64,000 nucleotides of DNA from an uncultured delta proteobacterium (GTDB lineage: Bacteria; Myxococcota; Kuafuiibacteriia; Kuafuiibacteriales; Kuafuiibacteriaceae). Location: assembly GCA_963803435.1 (NCBI GenBank), contig CAWDML010000009.1, positions 588,954-652,953 of the forward strand, given 5' to 3'. The notes under the pieces are model-generated. The model was not told the origin of the DNA, made no database searches, and saw only the letters and a program-made list of their open reading frames with translations. Shown here piece after piece: positions 22,015 through 32,582 of the stretch; positions within the stretch are counted from its first letter, which is position 1; each line of letters opens with the position of its first letter. Both the position numbers and the translations under genes were made by a program.

Positions 22015-23253
22015 TCACAGGTGCGGCCCGTCGAGCGCCGCGCTCAGGCCATACGCCGTGCCACCGATCACCAGGCCGGCGATCAAGCTGATCCATGGGG
22101 CCGAATCCTCCTCGAAGAGGGATCCGACGGTGAACGTGGCCCCGGCGCCGATGAGGCTGTATCCGAATGGACCCAAGAGGAGCCCCCGGGGGTTGACGTC
22201 TTCTGGCGCGGTGTCGTCCGCGTGGCGGGCGCCGAGAGTGGTGAATGCGGAGCCGCCCGAACAGTCGCCGCCCGGCTCGTCGAAGCAGGCCGTCACCAGA
22301 TCGCGGTCCTGCGTCGCGACGGCGGCGACCAGCACGCCGGCGCCGATCACCGACAGCGCGATGCCGCTCCAGAAGACGATCCGGTCTGCGATGCGGGATG
22401 GGTTGTTCTCGAGCGCTCGAAGATCGACGCTCACCGGCGCGGTCTGCCCGCGCTCCACCAGCACGCTCACGGTGAACGGTGCGTGCTTGGGATCGGTCAG
22501 CTCGATCACGTGCGTCCCAGGGCGGACCCGTCGGACCGCGATCGGCTCGTCCTGCGTGACGCCGACCGTGGTGCCGTCGATGGAAATGCCGGCGCCTTCG
22601 ACGTCGCAGGTAATCTCGAGGGCGCCGTAGGGCTCGTAGTACCCGGCCTCCTCGAGCGGAGGTCGCAGCGTCTTCGTGAAGAGATCGTTCATGAAGCCCC
22701 GGGCCAGGGCCGCGGTGGGGATCTCCTTGCGCCGGACCTCGGCGAGAACCGCGGACGCGGCGACGCGGGCCTCCAGATCGTCCTCCCAGCCATCCCTGCG
22801 TCGATCGGCCGCGTGAAAGAGGGCCAGCGCCTGATCCGTGTCGACCAGCAGCGCGGACATCCGGTCCGGCTGTCCCTCGCGAGTGACGTTCGTGAGGACC
22901 AGCAGATATCTCGAGTAGACGACGCCGTCGCGCCGCAGGCGATCGACATGCTCGCGAAATGGAGCGAGCTCGCCGCTGTCCGTCATCAGCGCCTCGCGCC
23001 GATAGTCGGGCCGTGCCTTGAGCGACAGGCAGACGAGCCGGCCCCGGCACTCGTCCATCAGGGAGGCGTCGAGCAGCACCGGGCGCAGATTCGTGTGCGC
23101 GGCGAAGAGCTCGTCGAGGATGCGGATGATCTCGGAGCTGTTGACGGCCGCAATCTCGCCGGTCGGCGTGCTCAGCAGGAACGAGAGCGGCTGCGGCTCC
23201 TCGAGGTGAACCTCGGGCGTCGCCGTCAGGAGCGCCAGGCCGAGGAGGAGCAC
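22015..23253 (-). CDS. secreted/membrane protein with a PEGA-like beta-sandwich domain and a C-terminal TM region
   Basis: GTG start. Signal-like MLLLGLALLTA. The segment ITCDVEGAGISIDGTTVGVT...PGTHVIELTDP is PEGA-like. Hydrophobic C-terminal helices. Confidence 0.5.
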   Translation of the reverse strand: MLLLGLALLTATPEVHLEEPQPLSFLLSTPTGEIAAVNSSEIIRILDELFAAHTNLRPVLLDASLMDECRGRLVCLSLKARPDYRREALMTDSGELAPFREHVDRLRRDGVVYSRYLLVLTNVTREGQPDRMSALLVDTDQALALFHAADRRRDGWEDDLEARVAASAVLAEVRRKEIPTAALARGFMNDLFTKTLRPPLEEAGYYEPYGALEITCDVEGAGISIDGTTVGVTQDEPIAVRRVRPGTHVIELTDPKHAPFTVSVLVERGQTAPVSVDLRALENNPSRIADRIVFWSGIALSVIGAGVLVAAVATQDRDLVTACFDEPGGDCSGGSAFTTLGARHADDTAPEDVNPRGLLLGPFGYSLIGAGATFTVGSLFEEDSAPWISLIAGLVIGGTAYGLSAALDGPHL

Positions 23254-23300
23254 GCGAAGATGGTAGCCTCAGATCGGCAGCACGGCCATGATGACCGGGC

Positions 23301-24398
23301 GTGGTGGAGTGCGACGTCGCCGTCATCGGAGGGGGCCCCGCAGGTGCAGCGGCCGCCACCGTCCTCGCGGGACACGGACATCGCGTGCACGTCCTCGAAC
23401 GCGCCCGGCTGCCTCGCGCGCACGTCGGTGAGTCGCTCCCCCCGAAGGTGGCGCCTCTTCTCGCGATCCTGGGAGTCGCCGAGCGCATCGACGCGGCCGG
23501 ATTCGAGCGGATGCGCGGGACCACGATCGCGCGGGGGAACGGGATCGACAGCCACGACTTCCACCCCGGCGGTGCGCTGCGAGGGTATCAGGTCGATCGG
23601 GCTCGGTTCGATCGGATCCTGATCGAACGGGCGCGAGAGGTCGGCGCGACGGTCCTGGAGGAGGCGGCCTTCACCGGGGTGCTGCGCGAGGGCTCACGCG
23701 TGGTCGGTGTCTGCTTCTCGCACGGCGGGGGTGCGGAGGAGCTCCGCGCCCGCTTCGTGGTCGACGCCTCCGGGACCCCGGCGGTGGTCTCGCGCGCGCT
23801 CGGGATGAAGCGCCGCGATGCGATCCGCACGGTCGCCCTGTCGGCGTACTGGGAAGGGACGCGGGCACCGGTGACGTTTCCGGCGACCAACACGCTCTTC
23901 GAGATGGTGGAGGACGGCTGGGTGTGGTCGCTCCTGCGCGCGGACGGGCTCCGAAACGTCACGCTCGGGCTCGATCCTGCAACCCTCCAGACCGCCGGGG
24001 TCTCGAAGCGAGAGGTCTATCTCGAGCGGGTGCGCGACGGGTTGCTGGTGGCGCCGCTGCTCGAGGGGGCGCGCCTCACCGGGACGGTCGAGATCGCCGA
24101 CGCCACCTGGTCATCGGCCGAGCGCTACGCGGGGGATGGCTTTCTGTTCGCCGGGGACGCGGCCTCCACCATCGACCCGCTCACGTCGCAGGGCGTCTAC
24201 AAGGCGCTCCAGTCCGGCATCGTGGGAGCGGCTGCGATCAACACCTGCTTGTCGCGCCCGGAGGACGCCGCCCTGGCGCTCGTCTACTACCAGGCGTCTC
24301 AGGAGGAGTTCCAGCGCAACTACGCCGAGATCGCGCTCGACCTTCTATCGCGCTTCACCGTTTCAGGAGGCGCCCTTTTGGAGGACGCGCATGCGCTC
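23301..24398 (+). CDS. FAD-dependent oxidoreductase, flavin-dependent (tryptophan-type) halogenase-like; the 3' end is undefined and the reading continues without a stop
   Basis: GTG start. Dinucleotide fold DVAVIGGGPAGAAAA..VHVLER. GESLPPK (halogenase GESL/Lys context), a GWVWSLL (WxW) segment, and FAGDAAS. After about residue 365 the in-frame reading becomes G/P/R-rich with no stop until 24788. Confidence 0.65.
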
Positions 24399-24853
24399 GG
24401 AGGCCCTGGCGGAGGCCGGCATCGACGCGGACCGCATCAAGGAGGAGCTCGACCGCCGCCTGGCCTTCTACGAGCGCCTCGGTCGCTCCGGCGGGTCGGG
24501 CCTGACGGCGGCGCGGCGGGCAGATTCTGTCCTGCGAGCTGCGGCCCGCCGCCGAGGGCGGGTTCATCGTCAAAAAGCCAATGCTCTCCGACGGAACGGC
24601 GCGCCCGGTCGACAGCGGGCGCCTCGACGCTCCGCTGCTCCTCGAGCTCCTCGACGGCCGCACGCTCTCCGAGGTGTTCGAGGCGTACGTCGCGCGGACC
24701 GGCGAGGAGCGCTCGTCCCGCCTCGGCCGCTCGCTTCTCACGACGGTGGCCCAGCTCGCGGCTCGGGATTCTGATCGAGGTGGTCTAGGCTGGTGTGCGC
24801 ATGCGCTGCGCGGGCGGCACCTGACGGACCTACCGGCAGGTCCGCTAGAGTGA
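24391..24853 (+). CDS. PqqD-family peptide-binding (RiPP recognition element) protein or domain; +1 frameshift near 24518. May be the C-terminal domain of the upstream FAD enzyme
   Basis: ATG 24391 is preceded by AGGAGG and GGAGGA. It reads MRSEALAEAGIDADRIKEELDRRLAFYERLGRSGGSGLTAARR and then, in the next frame, QILSCELRPAAEGGFIVKKPMLSDGTARPVDSGRLDAPLLLELLDGRTLSEVFEAYVARTGEE...RLGRSLLTTVAQLAA. Compare K. pneumoniae PqqD: ...[34 protein letters not shown]. Confidence 0.55.
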
Positions 24854-24860
24854 TTCTACC

Positions 24861-25265
24861 GTGACCGAGGATGCTTACGAGCTCACCACCGAGGATCTGA
24901 TCGAGACGTTCGACACCGACTCGATCGCGCCGCCGTCTGTGCAAGTTGGCTTGCCGACGCCGCGGACTCGCTCGAACGTCTCGGTGACCGGAGCGACGCC
25001 GCCTCCAGCGCCGACCGCCGACCGACCTCGGTTCGTGCCCTCGGCGCTCTCTCGGCCGATCAAGGAGCGGACGCGCAGCCAACGCGAGCTGAAGCTCGAC
25101 GAGGGGCCGACCAGCCTGGTGTCGAAGGCCGCCGCGTTCTTCGAGGAGGCGCTCGAGGCGGAGCGGGAAGGGGACGTAGCTGCTGCGATCCGCCACGTGA
25201 AGCTGGCGATGACGTTCAACCCCGCCGACCCACGGTATGCGGGCTTCCTCAGCAAGCTCCGCTGA
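24861..25265 (+). CDS. hypothetical protein (134 aa): acidic N-terminus, Pro-rich middle, helical C-terminus
   Basis: GTG start 8 nt after the PqqD-like stop. MTEDAYELTTEDLIETFDTD...AAAFFEEALEAEREGDVAAAIRHVKLAMTFNPADPRYAGFLSKLR. Good codon usage. Confidence 0.5.
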   Translation: MTEDAYELTTEDLIETFDTDSIAPPSVQVGLPTPRTRSNVSVTGATPPPAPTADRPRFVPSALSRPIKERTRSQRELKLDEGPTSLVSKAAAFFEEALEAEREGDVAAAIRHVKLAMTFNPADPRYAGFLSKLR

Positions 25266-25268
25266 AGC

Positions 25269-28200
25269 TCACTTCTCAGGCTCGGTGCCGGCGCGGAGCC
25301 CGTGTCCGTTGCTCGCTCCGTCCGACAGCGCGTTGAGCTTCATCAGCTCGATCAGCTCGAGCAGGGGCCTCGTCAAGCTCCGCACCTCTTCCAGGTTCTG
25401 CGCGGAAGAACGAACGAGCGGGAGCAGCGCCGCCTCCAGCTCCTTGGGGGCCTGGTTCTGGACCTCGACCCTGACCTCGGAGGGTGAGCTCAGCTTCGCC
25501 ACCGCCGAGTCGAGCCTCGCCAGATGCTGGTCGAGCCAGGCGTCGCTCCGCTCGGCGCCCATCGCCTCCGCGATCCGCATCTGGATCCGATCGAGGTGCT
25601 CGCCCAGGCTCCCGATCGTCGAGGTGACACGCACGACTGGGTCCTGATCGCCGCCGCCGGTGACCTGCACGCGCCGGAAGTCCTTCTTGATCTGCTCCCA
25701 GCGCTGCGACTCCTCGTCGGTGAGGCGCCCGCGCAGCTCGGCGAGCTTGAGCAGGTTGTGCTCGGCGCCGGTCGTCAGCGTCTGGGCCTCGCTCCGCGTA
25801 GTGATCGTCGATCAGCGCCTCCAGCTCGGCGTCGTTCATCGCCGGCACGACCTTCTCGGCGAGCTTGTTCATGTTGCGGTAGCTGCCCTGGAGCTTGAAC
25901 GGCGGCTCGGTGCGGAAGCGGTCGTCCTGCGACGCCGACGCGATGTACTCGCGGTTCACGGCCAGGAGCACCTCTCGCGCCGCGAACAGCCGCTGAGAGC
26001 ACCGCGACGATCTCCTCGCTCTCGACGCGGAGTAGGCGTGCGCGAAGTCGGTCGTCCGGGACCTCCTCGCCCCTCGCCATGCGGATGAGCTTGTAGGCGT
26101 CGTCGAGCGCGCGCGCGGCGAGCGGCGCGAGCACCGGGTTGGAGGTGAGCGCGTTCTCGACGTAGCAGAGCGCGAAGAGCTCGTCCTTGCCGTGGAGGAT
26201 GTCGCCGAGGTTGTAGGTGTCGGCGCGGTTCGCCAGCATGTCGGGGATCTGGAACTTCTCGCCGGACTCCGTGTACGGATTGCCCGGCCATGACCACGCA
26301 GAACTTCTTGCCGCGCAGGTCGTAGGTCCGCGTCTGGCCCTTCCAGACGCCCTCGATCCGCCGCTGCGCGTCGCACAGCGAGATGAACTTCTGCAGCAGC
26401 TCCGGGTTCGTGTGCTGGATGTCGTCGAGGTAGAGCATCACGTTGTTGCCCATCTCGAACGCGAGGTTGATCTTCTCGACCTCCTGGCGCGCGGTGGCGT
26501 TGGGCGCCTCGGCGGGATCGAGCGAGGTCACCTCGTGGCCGAGCGCCGGGCCGTTGACCTTCATGAAGACGAGCCCGAGCCGGCTGGCCACGTACTCCAT
26601 CAGCGTGGTCTTGCCGTAGCCGGGCGGCGAGACCAGCAGCAGCAGGCCCATCAGGTCGGTGCGCTTGCTCTCGCCGGCCGCGCCGATCTGCTTGGCGAGG
26701 TTGTCGCCGATCAGCGGCAGGTAGACCTCGTTGATCAGCCGGTTGCGCACGAAGGAGGTGAGCACGCGCGGCTTCAGCTCGTCGAGCCGCAGGCGGCGCC
26801 GCTCGCGCTCGACGATCTCGGCGCGCAGCGCGCGAAACGCTCGGAAGGCCGGCACCCGGACCTCGCGAGAACGCGGTCGAGCCGCGCGAGGAACTCGTCG
26901 AGGCGGAGGCGAAGGGTGCGCTCCACGATACGCGGGTGCTGGCCGAGCAGCCCCTCGATCGTGACTGCGGTGACGCGCTGCTCTCGACGCGCGGCAGGCC
27001 CTCCGTCACCAGCAGCACCGCCGCCTCGATCAGCGAGGGCGCCAACGCCTCGATCGCGCCCGAGCCGCCCTCGAGCAGCGCCTCGAGGTAGGCGAGGGCG
27101 ACGGACAGCTTCTCGGGAAGGCTCCGCTCGAGAGCCTCGAGGTCCTCCTCGAACAGCCGGAGCGTGCCCTCCAGCGTGACGTGCTGGAACAGGGCGTCGC
27201 GGAGCTTGACCGCGTCGCGCCCTGGTGAACGAAGGACGGTCCGCGATCAGCTCCTCGACCAGGTACCGCCCGGCCAGGCGTAGCGTGCCGGTCCGGTGCT
27301 CGATCGCGTGCGCCTCCAGGAAGTCCGCGATCGCACCCGAGAGCTCGCCGGCGAGGGTCTCCTCGGCGCGCTGGTGGGCGAAGGATCGCCGCGAGCCGCC
27401 CCAGGCTGCGGGCGCGCCGCTGCCAGAGCGCCTTGCGATCGGCGTCGTCGAGGTACGCCCAGAAGAGGCACGCCCACGCGCGCGGCTCGGGGCGAAGCGA
27501 AGCAGCCCGCGCTGTGGCGCAGCGCCGCCAGCAACTTGTCCAGGATCGCGGCCGCGTCGGCGTCGTGGACGCCGCGCTCGTAGCCCTCGTCGTAGCGGTC
27601 GGCCGCGTACCTTCGAACGGCCTCGAGCAGCTCGCCGCTCTCGAGGCGCGACGAGATCCGAGATCGCGCATCATCGAGGACGCGAGGTACTCGCCGCGGT
27701 AGACCGCGTCCGTCTCGGAGACGAGCTTCTGGTCCCAGAGCGCGCGGCCGGCCTCGAAGCGGGGATCGTCGATCTTCTCGTAGTACTGCGTGCCGGTGAG
27801 GTGCAGGTACATCGCGCCGTCGCGCGGCACCAGCGTGAGCTCGAGCGGCTGCGTGTTGACGTTGAACCGGTGCTGCCCGAGCTTGATGACGCTCTCGCCG
27901 TCGTCGTAGAGGTCCAGCTTGTCGCGCAGGTCCGCGGAGGCGTCCTGCTTGGCCGACTTCAGGCGCGACTCGATCTCGTCGGCCTTCACCGTGTCGCCGA
28001 GCTCGACGAGCTGCCCGACGAGCTCCCGGAGCTTGAGCACCATCGCGTCGGAGGCGAAGTACGCGTTGAGCTCGTCGTCCTCGCCGAAGCTCTTGGCGCG
28101 CCGATTCACGCTCTCCAGGATCCGCTCGGCCGCGGTGGCGATGTTCTGGGCCCGCCGCTGGCGCTCGTCGAGGAGCTGCTGCTTCTTGGCCTCGAAGGCC

Positions 28201-30480
28201 TCGTAGACCTCCTCGCGCTTGCTCGCGAGCTCGCCGAGGAACTCGTCGAACTCGCCGAACCGGCCCTCCAGCTCCTCGAGCTGGACCATCAGGCGCGAGA
28301 GCTGCTCGTCGCAATGCTCGGGCGTGTCGGCCAGGGCGATCGCGCTGGTCACGCTCTGGCCGAGCAGCTTGAACTGGGCGCCGAACTCGGCCTTGCCCTC
28401 CCTCGAGAGCAGCGTCGCTTGTGCGGTGACCAGCGTCGCGCGCACGCGGTTCAGGTGGGCGAACACCTCGGAGATGTGCTCCAGGATCTCGGTGCGCTGC
28501 GGTGGCGTCGTCGACCTCCAGCCCGGCCACCGTCTCGGAGAGGAGGTCGAGCCCCTGCGTGAGGATCGTCCAGCTCCTTCTCCAGCGGCACGAGCTCGGT
28601 TGGCCTTGTCGGTGTCCTCGACCTTGGCGAGCAGCGCCTCGAGCTGCTCGAGCAGCGGGGACAGCGCGTCGTCGGCGAGGAGGAAGGCGACGCAGTGCTT
28701 GCTGACGCGTCGAACTGCTCGACGACCTCCTGCTCGAGGCGGTCGAGCGCGGCCAGGTCGATGTAGCGCACCTCGCTCAGCGTGATGAGCTGGCCGCGCT
28801 GCTTCCTGAGCGCCGCCAGCGCGTCGAGGAACTCCGAGATCTGCTTCGAGTCTTCCGGACGGAGCTCGCGGACGATCGCCTTCTGCTGCTCCTCGGTCTG
28901 CTTCAGCGCCTGCTCGGCGCGTTCGCGGAGCGCCAGCACCTTCTCGAACTCGTCGACGATCAGCTCGGCGTGGTCTTGATCTCGATCGAGCGTGGTCTTG
29001 AAGTCGCCCGCCTCGGCCTCGCCGAGCCAGTAGTAGCTGTCGACGCATCCGGGTGACGTTCGCGATCAGGTCCTCGTAACTCTGGCGCGTCGGGCGCTCC
29101 TGATGGATCGGCGGACGCATCGAGTCAGGCGTCGGAGATCCCGCGCACCAGATCGGCGTTGCCGACCTTGGCCAGGTAGGAGCCGCGTCGGGGCGTGGCG
29201 GCCGCGAACTCGGCGGAGGTGAACGGGCGTCTGCCAGATCTGCATCGGGTGCACGCGGGTCGGCTCGTCTGAGACCGCGCGGAACACCACCATGTTGCCG
29301 TCGTCGAACAGGCTGAAGCCGTGGCAGACGGATCGGGTTCTGGACCTCCTTGCGGATCAGGTTGTAGGGGAGGAGCACGTAGCGTCCCGCGAGCTCGTGA
29401 TAGAAGACGTAGAGCACGTCCTCGCCGTTCGGGCGAGCTGATCGCCCGCATGAAGCTCGAGGTTCGTCGTAGTCGCCGTCGAAGACCTTGTGCTCGCCGG
29501 TCTGCAGGTAGTAGCCGCCGGGGAAGATGATCCCGTGGTCCTCGGGCAGCTGACGCAGGCCTCGCCGATCGCGTCGAGCCGGCGCACGTCCTTGGTCCGC
29601 GTGTTGAACACCAGGTGGCGCCAGGCGTTCTCGCGATAGGGCAGGATCTTGAGGAGAATCAGCGGACCCGACCTTCGCGTAGTGGATCTCGGCGTCGTCG
29701 AGCGTCTGGCGCGGGTCGTCGACCGGCTCGCGGTAGATGCCCAGCCCGTCCTCGGTGTTGTTCTCGACCTTGATCGTGAGATCGCCGCCGACGGTCTCGA
29801 CGAACACCTGGTCGAGGATCGAGACGTGCGGGTGGCGCCCCGAGACCTGGTCCTCGCGGGTGGTCTGGATCCACTCGAAGTCGATGCGGCGGCGGCAAGA
29901 CGTGGTCGCGCTCGCCCGCGGTTGTCGATGTACGTCGGGTTCCGTCGGGATCGAGCGACCAGCGGAGCACCTTGACGTCGTCGAGCGTCGCGGCCGACCT
30001 GGAACACCGCGAGCAGCTGCGTCTCGCTGCGAGATCTCGGATCACGAGCAGCTTGGCGTCCTTGTAGTACCGGTACAGCTCGTCGAAGTCGCGGGCGAAG
30101 CCGGGATCGACCAGCAGGCCGGGGACGCTGTCCGCCGGGGCCTGCGATAGATCGAAGCCACCCTCGGGGGTGCGCTCGAAGCGGTGCAGGCTGAAGACGT
30201 CGCCGACCTGGTCTCGGTGCTTGAGACCGATGAAGACGTTGTAGCCGAAGAGCAGCTGCCCGCCGACCTGGACGATGTCGCGGGGGACGCAGTTGTTCTC
30301 GGTGCGCACGCGCTCGTTGCCGATCACCGCGAGCTCGGTCCCGCCGAAGGTCTCCTTGCGGCGGGCGTTGAGCTGGTCCGCCTTCCCGGTCAGCACCTCG
30401 GCCGGCTCGAGAAGGCGGGATCGGATGACCTCGTAGCTCCCGCCCTCGAGGGCGTCGTTCGTCTGCTCGCCGTCGCTCAT
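25269..30480 (-). pseudogene. very large (about 1700 aa) AAA_5 (MoxR/McrB/dynein-like) ATPase gene, reading broken by at least 12 single-base indels
   Basis: Coding-like fragments across at least 5 listed ORFs or frames on the minus strand.
- N-terminal domain: MSDGEQTNDALEGGSYEVIRSRL...FGYNVFIGLKHRDQVGDVFSLHRFERTPEGGFDL.
- Middle: ...PEDHGIIFPGGYYLQTGEHKVFDGDYDEP...EDVLYVFYHELAGRYVLLPYNLIRKEVQNPI....
- About 290-aa coiled-coil stretch: TEILEHISEVFAHLNRV...GESVIKLGQHRFNVNTQPLELTLVPRDGAMYLHLTGTQYYEKIDDPRFEAG.
- AAA_5 core: LLLVSPPGYGKTTLMEYVASRLGLVFMKVNG...MLYLDDIQHTNPELLQKF...KKFCVVMAG|NPYTESGEKFQIPDMLANRADTYNLG....
- C-terminus: ...REVLLAVNREYIAS...LEALIDDHYA and ...ARLDSAVAKLSSPSEVRVEV....
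The start ATG overlaps the flotillin stop (TGATG). Confidence 0.6.
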
Positions 30481-32582
30481 CAGTTCGGCTCGTCGACTCC
30501 CAGCTCCTTGGCCTTTTCGACCAGGCTCTCGAGCTTCTTCTTCGTCTCACCGTCGGCGCCGGCCATCATCTTGCCGAGGAAGTTCGACACCGTGTCGCCG
30601 TTCGCCAGGTACTTTCCGAAGAGGTGCTGGACGTGGTTGCTGTTGTCGACCACGCCGTCGACCGCCTGGCCCACCGAGACCGCGTTGATGAACCGGTCGA
30701 AGAACTGTCCGTCGCCGCCGACGATGTTGATGTTCGCCTCCTCCAAGGCCTCGCACATGATCTTCGCGCGCTGCTCGGCGATCGCCTTGCGGGCCTCGAT
30801 CTCGGCCAGCGCCACCTGACGGTCCATGTCGAGCCGCAGCCGGAACTCCTCGTGGCCGCGGCTGGCCTCGTCGAGCAGCTTCATCGCGGCGGCCTTCTCG
30901 CGGATCGCCAGGGCCTCCGCCACGCCTTCCTTCTCCCGGACCTCGGCGCCTCGGCCTCGCCGATCCGCGCGCCGACCAGGCCCTGCTCCTCGCGCCCTTG
31001 GCCTCGGCCAGCAGCTTCTCGCGGACGATCGAGGCCTCGGCGACGCCGCGCTTCTCGATCGCGTGGGCCTCGGCCTCCTGGACGCTGACCCTCGCCAGGC
31101 CCTTCTCCTGCTCACCGGCGGCCTCCGCCTCCAGCTGTCCGCGCGTGACGCGGGCCTTGGCGTTGCCCTCCTTCTCGATCGCGACCGCGTCGGCCTCCTT
31201 GACGCGGACCTCGGCCAGGCCCTCGGCGGCAGCCTCGGCCTGGGTGCCCTCGGCCAGCCGGATCTTGGCCTTGGCGTGCTTGTCGGCGGCCTCGAGCTCG
31301 GCGTCGGCCAGCGTGAGCTTCTCCTTGGCCTTGAACTTGGCCGCCTCTTCGCTGGCCTCGGCGGCGCGCACGGTCTTCACCAGCCTTCCTGCGCCTCGGC
31401 CTCGGCGTGCGATGACCTGGACCTCCTTCTTCCGCTTGGCCTCGGCCACCGCGCGGACGTCCTTGATCCGCTCCTCCTCCTCGGCGACCGTCTTGTCGAC
31501 CGCGATGCGCGCGCGGATGACGTCCGCGATCTCCTTCTTCTCGATCTCGAGCTCCTTCTCCTTGGCGATCCGCTTGACAGCTCGGTCTCGCGCTCGCGGA
31601 TGATCTGCCTCCAGGGCCTGGTCCTTCTCGACGCGCTCGTTCTCGACGGCACCACGCGCTCCTGGTTCTTCTTCGCGACCTCGATCTGGCGGTTCTTCGC
31701 CTCTTCGCTGACCTCGACCTCTTCCTCGGCCTTGATTCGCGCGATCTCGGCCTTCTGGTGCTCCTCGGCCTGGACCTCTGGGTCTCGGCCTCCTCGCGCG
31801 CCCTCACGGTCGCGATCTCGCGGGCCTGCTTGGCCGCGGCGTCCGCACAGCTGCCGCTCGAGCTCCAGGATCGCCTCCTCGGCCTCGACGTTCTGCTTCT
31901 TGATCTGCTTGCGCTCGGTCTGCTTGAGGTCGTTGGTCTGAACGCTCTGGAGCGTGGTCAGCTCGGTGATCTTGCGGATGCCCTGGGCGTCGAGGATGTT
32001 GTGCGGGTCGAGGGACTCCATCGGGGTCTGCTCGAGGAAGTCGATCGCCGCGTCGTCGAGGACGTAGCCGTTGAGGTCGCGGCCGATCGTCCTGGATGAT
32101 CTGGTCCTTGAAGCTCGTCCCGCTTGGTGTAGAGCTCCTCGAAGTCGAGCTGCTTGCCGACGGTCTTGAGGGCCTCGGAGAACTTGGCGCTGGAACAGCT
32201 CCTCGAGCGTCCTCTGGTCCGAAGCGCGCGCGCAGCCGACCTGCTGGGCGACCTTGAGCACGTCCTCGGTGGTCTTGTTCACCCGCACGAAGAACGTGAC
32301 CTTGATGTCCGCCCGGATGTTGTCCTTGCAGATCAGGCCTTCCTTGCCGCGCCGATCGATCTCGATGGTCTTGACCGAGATGTCCATGACCTCGGCCCGA
32401 TGGATCACCGGGAGCACCAGGCCGCCGGTGAAGGTCACGATCGGATCCTTGCTCATCTTGTTGACGATCAGGGCCTTGCCTTGATCGACCTTTCGATAGA
32501 ACTTGGCCACCATCGCGGCGAACCCGGCGATGATGATCGCCAGGACCACGACTACGACTGCAGCGACTATCAGGTTTTGCAT
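30480..32582 (-). pseudogene. flotillin-like SPFH protein (YqiK/FloT family) with long Ala/Glu-rich coiled-coil tail; reading broken by about 6 indels
   Basis: ATG 32582 follows GAGGTCGAGGTAACG.
- N-terminus: MQNLIVAAVVVVVLAIIIAGFAAMVAKFYRKVDQGKALIVNKMSKDPIVTFTGGLVLPVIHRAEVMDISVKTIEIDRRGKEGLICKDNIRADIKVTFFVRVNKTTEDVLKVAQQVG.
- In-frame patches: ...TIGRDLNGYVLDDAAIDFLEQTPMESLDPHNILDAQGIRKITELT...
- Out-of-frame patches of 25-40 codons, e.g. QRQVLRGPQDRRQAARLRG... and CGRRGQAGPRDRDREG....
- The tail continues in two further frames (30547..31449, 30480..31115), ending ...NSNHVQHLFGKYLANGDTVSNFLGKMMAGADGETKKKLESLVEKAKELGVDEPN. Confidence 0.7.

What the first reader, a model, noticed from the sequence alone, without database searches (positions are those of the whole stretch)
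23301..25265. Flavin-dependent halogenase-like enzyme followed by (or fused to) a PqqD-type RiPP recognition element: candidate peptide-modification module
The first about 365 codons carry FAD-fold and Trp-halogenase-family signatures (GGGPAG, GESLPPK, W-x-W segment). That reading then degenerates with no stop.

The +1 frame holds an ATG (24391) behind AGGAGG/GGAGGA. After correcting one extra G at about 24518, it reads ...GFIVKKPMLSDGTARPVDSGRLDAPLLLELLDGRTLSEVFEAYVARTGEE.... This parallels PqqD (...[31 protein letters not shown]...).

PqqD/RRE domains recruit leader peptides to RiPP tailoring enzymes. A halogenase-like FAD enzyme next to or fused with an RRE is rare. It occurs here without any YcaO, lasso cyclase, LanB or radical-SAM partner. 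A co-transcribed 134-aa acidic protein (24861..25265) follows 8 nt later and could be the substrate or a scaffold.
Basis: partly seen in the sequence, partly recalled or inferred. Interest (0 to 1): 0.75.

Follow-up and report, generated by a model that had tools for sequence, protein, structure and literature searches.

The report
Frameshifted QhpG/CmlS-like flavoenzyme gene
This is one ordinary gene, broken on paper by three single-base sequence errors, for a halogenase-like flavin enzyme with a built-in winged-helix tail, an architecture already known from QhpG and CmlS; it lacks the lysine that halogenases need, and nothing links it to the small gene downstream.

Summary
The ORF at 23301..24788 is real, but it is one gene, not two. 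Deleting three single extra bases (C 24342; one base within 24506-24527, best T 24526; T 24770) restores a 494-aa protein. That protein aligns end to end (95-99% coverage, 41-67% identity) with about 50 intact 490-510-aa proteins, mostly from Myxococcota MAGs. Neighbouring genes in the window carry many similar frameshifts, so assembly error is the likely cause.

The N-terminal 350 residues are a CmlS/CndH/QhpG-type FAD fold. The catalytic lysine of flavin halogenases is Met in 58 of 62 family members and never Lys, so a monooxygenase is more likely than a halogenase.

The same two-domain architecture is already solved in CmlS (2010) and QhpG (2021).

No RiPP enzymes or precursor genes are conserved nearby. 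The 134-aa ORF is absent from homologous loci, and its own homologues sit in unrelated contexts. The substrate remains unknown.

The parts
23301..24788 (+). One gene for a 494-aa two-domain flavoprotein. As assembled it contains three single-base insertions. The deposited genome calls it as a 467-aa ORF whose last roughly 150 residues are out of frame.
   Evidence: ORF list. Three-frame translation. The reconstructed protein matches about 50 intact homologues over 95-99% of its length. Deleting 24342, 24526 and 24770 gives a clean 494-codon ORF. P0003 is the same broken ORF in the public record.
23301..24341 (+). Frame-1 segment, residues 1-347. It holds most of the FAD-binding, halogenase-like catalytic domain: GGGPAG at 23328-23345, GESLPPK, GDAAS-IDPLTSQGVYKA.
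   Evidence: Pfam PF04820 4.9e-22 and PF01494 4.4e-21. NCBIfam QhpG 2.3e-68, CmlS 4e-51, LodB 3.3e-42. Family profile against PDB: CmlS 2.6e-82, CndH 6.2e-74, QhpG 1.4e-47.
23511..23513 (+). Codon for Met71, at the position of the catalytic lysine of flavin-dependent halogenases (CmlS K71, CndH K76).
   Evidence: HMM alignments to 3I3L, 8ZOP and 3E1T put their Lys opposite this column. The column is Met in 52 of 54 and in 58 of 62 family members, and never Lys.
23919..23927 (+). W207-V-W209, the W-x-W of the halogenase WxWxIP motif. The following 'IP' is replaced by S-[VL]-L.
   Evidence: Column counts are W 53/54 and W 54/54, followed by S 49/54. CmlS, CndH and FasV have WxWxIP in the same alignment.
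24342..24342 (+). Frameshift 1: an extra C (GAC|C|TTC). Reading moves from frame 1 to frame 2.
   Evidence: The peptide NYAEIALD ends at 24341 in frame 1 and FYRASPF starts at 24343 in frame 2. Homologues read ...AL[ST]FYRxSP... without interruption.
24343..24525 (+). Frame-2 segment, residues 348-408. It covers the end of the catalytic domain (invariant F359, W360, R363) and a helical linker. It contains the ATG at 24391, which is internal and not a start.
   Evidence: The full-length model of homologue P0002 has helices at 357-395.
24506..24527 (+). Frameshift 2: one extra base in this interval (best guess T 24526, GAT|T|CTG). Reading moves from frame 2 to frame 3.
   Evidence: Frame 3 has a stop at 24503-24505, and LSCELRP starts at 24527 in frame 3. 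...RRADLSCELRP aligns with the homologue stretch ...RDLALEERP.
24490..24785 (+). C-terminal winged-helix domain, residues about 397-494. It has a beta-hairpin, three helices and a C-terminal strand, and it spans frameshifts 2 and 3.
24770..24770 (+). Frameshift 3: an extra T (GAT|T|CTG). Reading returns to frame 1, giving ...LAARDLIEVV and the stop TAG at 24786-24788.
   Evidence: QLAARD ends at 24769 in frame 3 and LIEVV starts at 24771 in frame 1. Homologues end ...LAARDLIEV....
24861..25265 (+). The 134-aa ORF downstream. It is probably a real small gene, but I judge it unlinked to the enzyme.
   Evidence: Coding-like GC3 of 0.84. Only 4 homologues, at 46-48% identity. They lie next to gnd or a cyclase gene, not next to the flavoenzyme. 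It is absent from syntenic homologous loci. It has no Trp and no Cys.
22015..23253 (-). Divergently transcribed gene for a PEGA-domain membrane protein, 47 bp from the flavoenzyme start. It is the only neighbour that recurs, and only within one lineage.
   Evidence: A PEGA protein is adjacent and divergent in the window, P0002, P0007/L001, P0036/L006 and L008. In L002 it lies one gene further away. It is absent from L003, L004 and L009-L013.

Best explanation
SHOWN
- Bases 23301..24788 are a single gene. Three single-base insertions in the assembled sequence disguise it as a degenerating ORF followed by an out-of-frame domain.
- The corrected product is 494 aa. It belongs to a small family of 490-510-aa proteins, mostly from Myxococcota MAGs, that has not been characterised.
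- The family has an N-terminal FAD domain of the CmlS/CndH/QhpG 'variant B halogenase-like' type, a helical linker and a C-terminal winged-helix domain. This is the domain plan of the solved enzymes CmlS and QhpG.

INFERRED
- The halogenase lysine is a conserved Met, while the FAD motifs, Glu44 and the W-x-W pair are kept. The enzyme therefore most likely uses reduced FAD and O2 to form a C4a-hydroperoxyflavin and hydroxylates its substrate directly, as QhpG, LodB and GoxB do. It probably does not make HOCl or a lysine chloramine.
- The winged-helix domain sits over the catalytic domain. By analogy with QhpG, it probably forms one wall of a large cleft that holds a bulky substrate, plausibly an aromatic residue on a peptide or protein.
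- It may be a distant relative of PqqD-type recognition elements, but that is not established.
- The substrate gene is not adjacent. The enzyme is a stand-alone gene and is not part of a RiPP cluster with the 134-aa ORF.
For: - Single gene: 95-99% coverage by about 50 intact homologues. The alignment is continuous across all three junctions. GC3 periodicity follows the frame switches.
- Assembly error: 3 frame changes in this gene, about 10 in the adjacent 5.2-kb DUF3686 gene and 2 in the next gene.
- Fold and architecture: the P0002 model has pLDDT 94.7 and pTM 0.92. CmlS matches at TMq 0.81 over 548 columns, including the C-terminal domain, and QhpG at TMq 0.64 over 498 columns.
- QhpG domain plan: catalytic residues 1-344 plus winged helix 349-429, with the substrate pocket between them (PMC7876137).
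- Not a halogenase: Lys is replaced by Met in 58 of 62 members, with zero Lys. Loss of this Lys abolishes halogenation in characterised enzymes, for example SrpI K84A (PMC10858898).
- Monooxygenase relatives: the best NCBIfam model is QhpG (231 bits), and LodB and GoxB also hit.
- Winged-helix domain.
- No cluster.
Against: - By catalytic-domain sequence the family is closer to true halogenases (CmlS 280 bits, CndH 253 bits) than to QhpG (166 bits) in the PDB profile search.
- The QhpG model score of 231 is under its cut-off of 240.
- No qhp, lodA or goxA genes are nearby.
- The role of the winged-helix domain in CmlS is not known to involve peptides.
- No substrate candidate was found, so 'peptide or protein substrate' rests only on analogy.
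- The invariant K301 and near-invariant K49 have unknown roles. A relocated catalytic lysine cannot be excluded by sequence alone.
- Whether the indels are errors or real mutations was not tested with reads.
Confidence: 0.6

Rival explanations
1. It is a small-molecule enzyme. The family hydroxylates, or otherwise oxidises or reduces, a free or carrier-bound small metabolite, as CmlS, CndH, PltA and FasV-type enzymes act on small substrates. The winged-helix domain is then only a structural lid, as in CmlS, with no peptide-recognition role.
For: - The highest sequence and whole-protein structural similarity is to CmlS, FasV, CndH, RadH and PltA.
- The gene stands alone, with no precursor gene and no conserved partner.
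- The geranylgeranyl-reductase superfamily model also hits, at 1.7e-35.
- The beta3 region of the C-terminal domain is variable.
Against: - The best NCBIfam model is the peptidyl-Trp dihydroxylase QhpG, and LodB and GoxB also match.
- The C-terminal domain's best matches include QhpG's substrate-cleft domain, PqqD and RREs.
- No PKS, NRPS or carrier-protein genes are nearby.
Confidence: 0.28
2. One reading: a RiPP tailoring module in which a PqqD-type RRE recruits a leader peptide, and the downstream 134-aa acidic protein is the substrate or scaffold.
- Weak but recurrent PF05402 hits.
- The orf134 looks coding and lies on the same strand, 72 nt downstream.
Against: - orf134 is missing from the syntenic loci of the closest homologues, and its own homologues lie in unrelated contexts.
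- It has no Trp or Cys.
- No RiPP enzymes, protease or exporter are conserved nearby.
- No PqqD/RRE model is significant.
- Foldseek returns no RRE.
Confidence: 0.05
3. It is a true pseudogene. The three insertions are real mutations and the locus is decaying.
For: - The deposited genome carries the same sequence (P0003).
- There are three independent indels in 1.5 kb.
Against: - There are no in-frame stops in the corrected reading, and codon-position GC bias is intact in each segment.
- The corrected sequence keeps every invariant family residue.
- Neighbouring large conserved genes carry even more frame changes, which points to consensus errors in the assembly.
Confidence: 0.1
4. It is a genuine halogenase that uses a different lysine (K49 or the invariant K301) in place of the canonical one.
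For: - K301 is invariant and K49 is present in 50 of 54 members.
- The closest solved relatives are halogenases.
- Glu44 and W-x-W are retained.
Against: - I know of no precedent for a relocated catalytic Lys in this family.
- The 'IP' of WxWxIP is lost. In halogenases that motif is thought to keep the substrate away from the flavin (established knowledge of the family).
- By numbering offset alone, K49 may correspond to QhpG Arg47, a substrate-affinity residue at the channel entrance (PMC7876137). I could not obtain an alignment to the QhpG sequence to confirm this.
Confidence: 0.05

Closest known systems
QhpG, peptidyl-tryptophan dihydroxylase of quinohemoprotein amine dehydrogenase maturation (PDB 7CTQ; NCBIfam NF049967)
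   Same: [quoted passage not shown]
- It is the best NCBIfam model (2.3e-68).
- It is the best sequence and structural match for the C-terminal domain alone.
- W-x-W is retained.
- It acts as a monooxygenase on a peptide-borne Trp held in the cleft between the two domains (PMC7876137).
   Different: - The score of 231 is below the 240 cut-off.
- The window protein has a helical linker about 60 residues longer.
- There is no qhpABCDEF context.
- The catalytic domain is closer in sequence to CmlS and CndH than to QhpG.
- The substrate is unknown.
CmlS, chloramphenicol FADH2-dependent halogenase (PDB 3I3L)
   Same: - It gives the best whole-protein structural coverage (TMq 0.81 over 548 columns) and the best PDB sequence match (2.6e-82).
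- It has the same plan: catalytic domain, linker and C-terminal winged helix.
- The GESL(L/P)P, GDAA..DPL.SQGV and FW..R motifs are shared.
   Different: - The catalytic Lys71 is Met here, and WxWxIP is reduced to WxWS.
- The NF033113 score is 174 against a cut-off of 900.
- There is no chloramphenicol-type cluster.
- CmlS Asp277, the covalent flavin link, aligns one column away from the family's conserved Asp267, so that feature is unresolved.
LodB / GoxB, flavoprotein maturases of CTQ quinoproteins
   Same: They share the halogenase-like FAD fold and act on a protein-borne Trp. Both models hit (3.3e-42 and 8.9e-37).
   Different: - Scores of 145 and 127 are far below the cut-off of 400.
- LodB and GoxB are about 360 aa and, by model length, have no C-terminal domain.
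- No lodA or goxA gene is adjacent.
PqqD / RiPP recognition elements (PF05402; PDB 3G2B, 5V1U, 6JX3)
   Same: - Small beta-sheet plus three-helix winged-helix fold.
- The helices align in register, with LLDGR opposite LVDGR.
- Weak PF05402 hits in 7 of 43 members.
   Different: - Nothing reaches significance: 16.5 bits against 23.4, and hhalign P 0.02.
- Foldseek finds no RRE.
- The third strand, which binds the leader peptide, is short and variable.
- There is no precursor peptide or RiPP enzyme nearby.
Peptide-modifying flavin halogenases (SrpI, MibH, ChlH)
   Same: They are flavoenzymes of the halogenase superfamily that act on peptide Trp residues.
   Different: - They keep the catalytic Lys, and SrpI K84A is inactive.
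- SrpI has no embedded RRE (PMC10858898).
- They belong to the Trp-halogenase branch rather than the CmlS/CndH branch.

Membership tests
Flavin-dependent halogenases (PF04820 / CmlS-CndH variant B) | Pfam Trp_halogenase model above the gathering score, and the GxGxxG FAD motif | tested here: met
   PF04820 scores 78.8 bits against a cut-off of 21. GGGPAG is at residues 10-15.
Flavin-dependent halogenases (PF04820 / CmlS-CndH variant B) | Catalytic lysine above the flavin (CmlS K71, CndH K76, PrnA K79) | tested here: not met
   The aligned column is Met in 58 of 62 members, with V in 3 and S in 1, and never Lys.
Flavin-dependent halogenases (PF04820 / CmlS-CndH variant B) | WxWxIP motif | tested here: not met
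   W207 and W209 are conserved, but 'IP' is replaced by S-[VL]. CmlS, CndH and FasV show WxWxIP in the same alignment.
QhpG (NF049967, equivalog) | Model score at or above the curated cut-off | tested here: not met
   231 bits against a cut-off of 240, a near miss.
QhpG (NF049967, equivalog) | Catalytic domain plus C-terminal winged-helix domain | tested here: met
QhpG (NF049967, equivalog) | Located in a qhp operon with qhpC (substrate), the radical-SAM qhpD, the protease qhpE and the exporter qhpF | tested here: not met
   None of these genes lies within 8 kb in the window's syntenic relatives or in any other homologous locus.
QhpG (NF049967, equivalog) | Dihydroxylation of a peptidyl Trp | not testable with these tools
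   This needs enzyme assays.
LodB / GoxB maturases (NF038171, NF038174) | Model score at or above the cut-off, and an adjacent lodA or goxA quinoprotein gene | tested here: not met
   Scores are 145 and 127 bits against cut-offs of 400. No such neighbour was found.
PqqD / RiPP recognition element (PF05402) | Significant match to a PqqD/RRE sequence model | tested here: not met
   The best score is E 0.011 and 16.5 bits against a cut-off of 23.4. hhalign against 22 PqqDs gives P 0.02. A profile search of 1.84 billion proteins finds no PqqD-family protein.
PqqD / RiPP recognition element (PF05402) | Three-stranded sheet plus three-helix winged-helix fold | tested here: inconclusive
PqqD / RiPP recognition element (PF05402) | Genomic association with a precursor peptide and RiPP-modifying enzymes | tested here: not met
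   Contexts vary between homologous loci. In the syntenic loci only 24-72 bp lie upstream and 4-11 bp downstream of the gene, which leaves no room for a precursor gene.
PqqD / RiPP recognition element (PF05402) | Binds a leader peptide | not testable with these tools
   This needs binding assays, or complex prediction against a candidate peptide. No candidate was identified.

The most novel reading that the evidence does not exclude
The family could be an orphan, lineage-wide protein- or peptide-residue hydroxylase that works like QhpG. Its embedded winged-helix domain would be a diverged recognition element that captures a substrate encoded elsewhere in the genome, for example to install a hydroxy-Trp or quinone-type modification in an unlinked protein. 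If so, the C-terminal domains of QhpG, CmlS and this family would be a previously unrecognised branch of the RRE superfamily, fused to halogenase-like flavoenzymes.
Probability: 0.2. Interest if true: 0.6.

Novelty: new member of a known kind. Interest (0 to 1): 0.3.

Why it matters
- The practical result is a correction. The apparent 'enzyme plus out-of-frame RRE plus substrate' module is one gene damaged by assembly errors. Its two-domain plan is already represented by solved structures (CmlS, QhpG).
- Public records label homologues 'tryptophan 7-halogenase'. The conserved Lys-to-Met change makes that label doubtful for the whole family.
- The modest scientific interest is that about 50 proteins, mostly from Myxococcota MAGs, form an uncharacterised clade between true halogenases and the peptidyl-Trp hydroxylases. 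If their substrate proves to be a protein or peptide, this would extend QhpG-type chemistry beyond quinoprotein operons.
- It would also support reading the QhpG/CmlS winged-helix domain as a substrate-recognition element.

Tried and rejected
- Two-gene reading with a start at ATG 24391. Rejected, because homologues are continuous across it.
- Pfam and NCBIfam on the uncorrected C-terminal piece. No PqqD hit. After correcting the third frameshift, only a sub-threshold hit appears.
- hhalign of the domain profile against 3 and then 22 genuine PqqDs. P values of 0.049 and 0.02, covering the helices only. The third large protein search returned mostly near-identical Klebsiella and Xanthomonas PqqDs, so the PqqD profile stayed shallow.
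- HMM of the C-terminal domain against 1.84 billion representatives. It found only the same family and its fragments.
- Genome-contig scan for more loci. Only 7 were found, in Myxococcota, 'Eisenbacteria' and one Planctomycetota-labelled MAG.
- All-against-all comparison of neighbours. No partner is conserved across the family. My GC3-based ORF lists were too noisy to add anything.
- A lead from memory that the PEARL-pathway Trp hydroxylase BhaC1 is QhpG-like. Wrong: BhaC1 is an FMN/TPR enzyme (PMC9850906).
- Promoter and terminator scan of 23100-25400. Nothing found.
- Looking up the source record through P0003. Not on record, so the organism is inferred only from homologues.
- Handing the reconstructed protein to the structure predictor. 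I used the window's exact frame-3 fragment and the intact homologue P0002 instead.
- Systematic GATC-to-GATTC error as the cause of the frameshifts. Not supported: the window has 852 GATC and 28 GATTC.
- Conservation of the covalent-flavin Asp of CmlS. The alignment is off by one column, so this is unresolved.
- An alignment to the QhpG sequence itself. I could not obtain one, so equivalence of QhpG Arg47, Arg70 and Trp183 was not tested residue by residue.
Full report
**What is in the sequence**

The window is 69.5% G+C. The ORF 23301..24788 (+) is listed as 495 aa. Only its first 347 codons read like a protein; after ...QRNYAEIALD the frame-1 translation becomes Arg/Pro/Ser/Gly-rich noise.

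The three-frame translation shows where the sensible reading goes:
- It continues in frame 2: FYRASPFQEAPFWRTRMRSEALAEAGIDADRIKEELDRRLAFYERLGRSGGSGLTAARR.
- It then moves to frame 3: ..LSCELRPAAEGGFIVKKPMLSDGTARPVDSGRLDAPLLLELLDGRTLSEVFEAYVARTGEERSSRLGRSLLTTVAQLAARD.
- It then returns to frame 1: LIEVV*.

Peptide coordinates place the junctions as follows:
- 24342, an extra C in GAC|C|TTC.
- Within 24506-24527, best the extra T at 24526 in GAT|T|CTG.
- 24770, an extra T in GAT|T|CTG.

Deleting these three bases gives a clean 494-codon ORF that ends at TAG 24786-24788. Codon-position G+C (high GC3, low GC2) follows the frame switches.

**One gene, not two**

A search with the reconstructed protein found about 50 intact proteins of 486-523 aa. 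They cover 94-99% of it at 41-67% identity. The multiple alignment is continuous across all three junctions, including the WRTRMR stretch that holds the ATG at 24391. That ATG is therefore an internal Met and not a start codon.

P0003 (467 aa, from a 1.8-Mb NCBI/ENA contig) is the window's own ORF with the same out-of-frame tail. The indels are therefore in the deposited assembly.

The frameshifts are not peculiar to this gene. tblastn with the neighbours of homologue P0007 gave these results:
- The 1753-aa DUF3686/AAA gene (window 25.3-30.4 kb, minus strand) is split over about 10 frame segments.
- The next 712-aa gene is split over 3 segments.
- The PEGA gene has no frame change.

That is more than one frame change per kb across conserved genes. 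The corrected reading has no internal stops and keeps every invariant family residue. This points to consensus errors in the assembly rather than gene decay, although only reads can prove it.

**The catalytic domain**

- Pfam gives Trp_halogenase 4.9e-22 and FAD_binding_3 4.4e-21.
- NCBIfam ranks QhpG first (2.3e-68, 231 bits against a cut-off of 240). CmlS (174 bits), LodB (145) and GoxB (127) follow.
- A profile of the family against PDB sequences ranks the true halogenases first: CmlS 2.6e-82, FasV 8ZOP 3.7e-79 and CndH 6.2e-74. QhpG comes at 1.4e-47, but its alignment runs on into the C-terminal region.

In the printed alignments, the catalytic lysines of CmlS (K71, checked against the chain numbering) and CndH (K76), and the corresponding Lys of FasV, all face one column of the family. 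That column is Met in 52 of 54 members and in 58 of 62 in a larger set, and it is never Lys.

The W-x-W pair is kept (W207 53/54, W209 54/54), but the 'IP' of WxWxIP is S-[VL]. Glu44, the GD and DP motifs, and F359/W360/R363 are invariant or nearly so. K301 is invariant and K49 is present in 50 of 54 members.

The lysine is essential for halogenation in characterised enzymes, for example SrpI K84A (PMC10858898). The label 'tryptophan 7-halogenase' that some homologues carry is therefore doubtful. A direct flavin-hydroperoxide monooxygenase, as in QhpG, LodB and GoxB, is the more likely chemistry. This step is inference.

**The C-terminal domain**

Without the third frameshift correction, Pfam and NCBIfam find nothing. 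With the correct ending (...LAARDLIEVV), the results are:
- PF05402 (PqqD) appears at E 0.011 and 16.5 bits, against a cut-off of 23.4.
- PqqD is the only family that recurs among members, in 7 of 43.
- hhalign of the domain profile against genuine PqqDs aligns the three helices in register (LLDGR opposite LVDGR). The P value is only 0.049 with 3 sequences and 0.02 with 22.
- A profile search of 1.84 billion representative proteins returns 41 hits. Nearly all are this family or fragments of it, three are multi-stretch matches in unrelated longer proteins, and none is a PqqD-family protein.
- The best PDB sequence hit of the domain profile is QhpG residues 349-413 (E 0.024). According to the QhpG paper, that is its C-terminal winged-helix domain (residues 349-429), which forms a large substrate pocket with the catalytic domain (PMC7876137).

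AlphaFold2 on the window's own 83 frame-3 residues, with 40 aligned sequences, gives pLDDT 94.4. The model has two 9-residue strands, a one-residue bridge and three helices.

- Lower down, MibB, TfuB1, PbtF, TbtB and TglI.

Foldseek supports only QhpG (probability 0.75, TMq 0.54). CmlS reaches a similar TMq of 0.53 but with probability 0.14 at rank 36, and there is no RRE among the top 50.

The segment that would be the leader-binding third strand of an RRE is the most variable and indel-rich part of the domain.

My reading is that this is a QhpG/CmlS-type winged-helix domain with RRE-like topology. Homology to PqqD is possible but unproven.

**Whole-protein architecture**

The intact homologue P0002 (67% identical) models as one compact protein: pLDDT 94.7 and pTM 0.92. 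It has a helical linker at 357-395 and a C-terminal domain at 400-494.

Foldseek gives CmlS TMq 0.81 over 548 columns, covering the whole protein including the winged helix. QhpG gives TMq 0.64 over 498 columns.

**Genomic context**

- In the window and in the loci of P0002, P0007/L001, P0036/L006 and L008, the gene sits between two neighbours. Upstream is a divergent PEGA-domain membrane protein, with 24-72 bp between the starts. Downstream is a convergent DUF3686/DUF7902/AAA giant gene, 4-11 bp after the stop.
- In P0028/L002 the neighbours are DUF2330 and a peptidase M2.
- In P0019, P0041, P0052 and the Eisenbacteria and other loci, the neighbours are unrelated.
- No radical-SAM, YcaO, LanB, lasso, protease or exporter gene recurs, and no small ORF recurs.

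**The 134-aa ORF**

- The ORF 24861..25265 looks coding. It occupies a spacer that the syntenic loci lack.
- tblastn finds it in none of the homologous loci.
- It has only four database homologues. These lie beside gnd (L014-L017) or a cyclase gene (L018), not beside a flavoenzyme.
- It has no Trp or Cys.

**How it most likely works**

Shown:
- It is a single gene.
- It has a CmlS/QhpG-type two-domain fold.
- The halogenase lysine is absent.
- There is no conserved cluster.

Inferred:
- Reduced FAD, from an unknown donor as in QhpG, reacts with O2.
- The flavin hydroperoxide hydroxylates a substrate that enters the re-face channel.
- The winged-helix domain forms part of the cleft that positions a bulky substrate, possibly a peptide or protein.

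Rivals:
- A small-molecule enzyme in which the winged helix is a structural lid, as may be the case in CmlS.
- A real pseudogene.
- A halogenase with a relocated lysine.

**Verdict**

The feature is a new, frameshift-damaged member of a known kind of enzyme. It has modest interest as an uncharacterised clade, mostly from Myxococcota MAGs, whose substrate is unknown.

Noticed in passing
window 25269-32525 (minus strand), and the whole window: Conserved genes are riddled with frame changes. The DUF3686/DUF7902/AAA homologue (about 1750 aa) is split over about 10 frame segments, and the adjacent 712-aa gene over 3. The assembly behind this window appears to have more than one indel error per kb, so any 'degenerating ORF' or 'overlapping frame' observation in this window should be treated with suspicion.
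   Followed up: partly
window 24523-24529 and 24767-24773: Two of the three frameshifts lie in the same heptamer, GATTCTG, where the corrected sequence would be GATCTG. The window has 852 GATC and only 28 GATTC, so this is not a wholesale motif error. The coincidence is unexplained.
   Followed up: partly
window 24826-24843: A perfect 6-bp inverted repeat with a 6-nt loop (GGACCT ACCGGC AGGTCC) lies between the flavoenzyme stop and the 134-aa ORF. No T-run follows it, and the terminator scan did not flag it.
   Followed up: no
window 24861-25265: The 134-aa ORF belongs to a very small family (4 homologues, 46-48% identity, 101-133 aa) with an acidic N-terminus and a conserved helical C-terminus (..AAAFFEEALEAEREGD..A...KLAM.FNP.DPRY...). 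It has no Pfam match. It appears in different contexts, after gnd or after a cyclase gene. Its function is unknown.
   Followed up: partly
window 22015-23253 (minus strand) and loci L001, L002, L006, L008: A PEGA-domain membrane protein of about 410-428 aa is divergently paired with the flavoenzyme gene, with 24-72 bp between the starts, in one Myxococcota lineage (41-44% identity to the window's copy in the paired loci; L002's, one gene away, is 40%). This could be shared regulation or simply inherited synteny. It is not conserved outside that lineage.
   Followed up: partly
homologues P0007, P0033, P0052, P0053, P0091, P0095 (public names): Public records call these proteins 'tryptophan 7-halogenase'. 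Among those included in the family alignments (P0007, P0033, P0052), the column of the catalytic lysine is never Lys (Met in 58 of 62 sequences), so the name is probably a family-wide over-annotation.
   Followed up: yes
residue 267 of the corrected protein (window about 24099-24101): A nearly invariant Asp (the H-D-A-T-W motif) aligns one column away from CmlS Asp277, the residue that forms the covalent 8-alpha-flavin ester in CmlS. Whether this family also binds FAD covalently is open.
   Followed up: partly
loci L010-L013 and L009: More distant members of the family (33-44% identity) occur in Candidatus Eisenbacteria/Eiseniibacteriota MAGs and in one MAG labelled Planctomycetota. The family is therefore not strictly confined to Myxococcota.
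   Followed up: no
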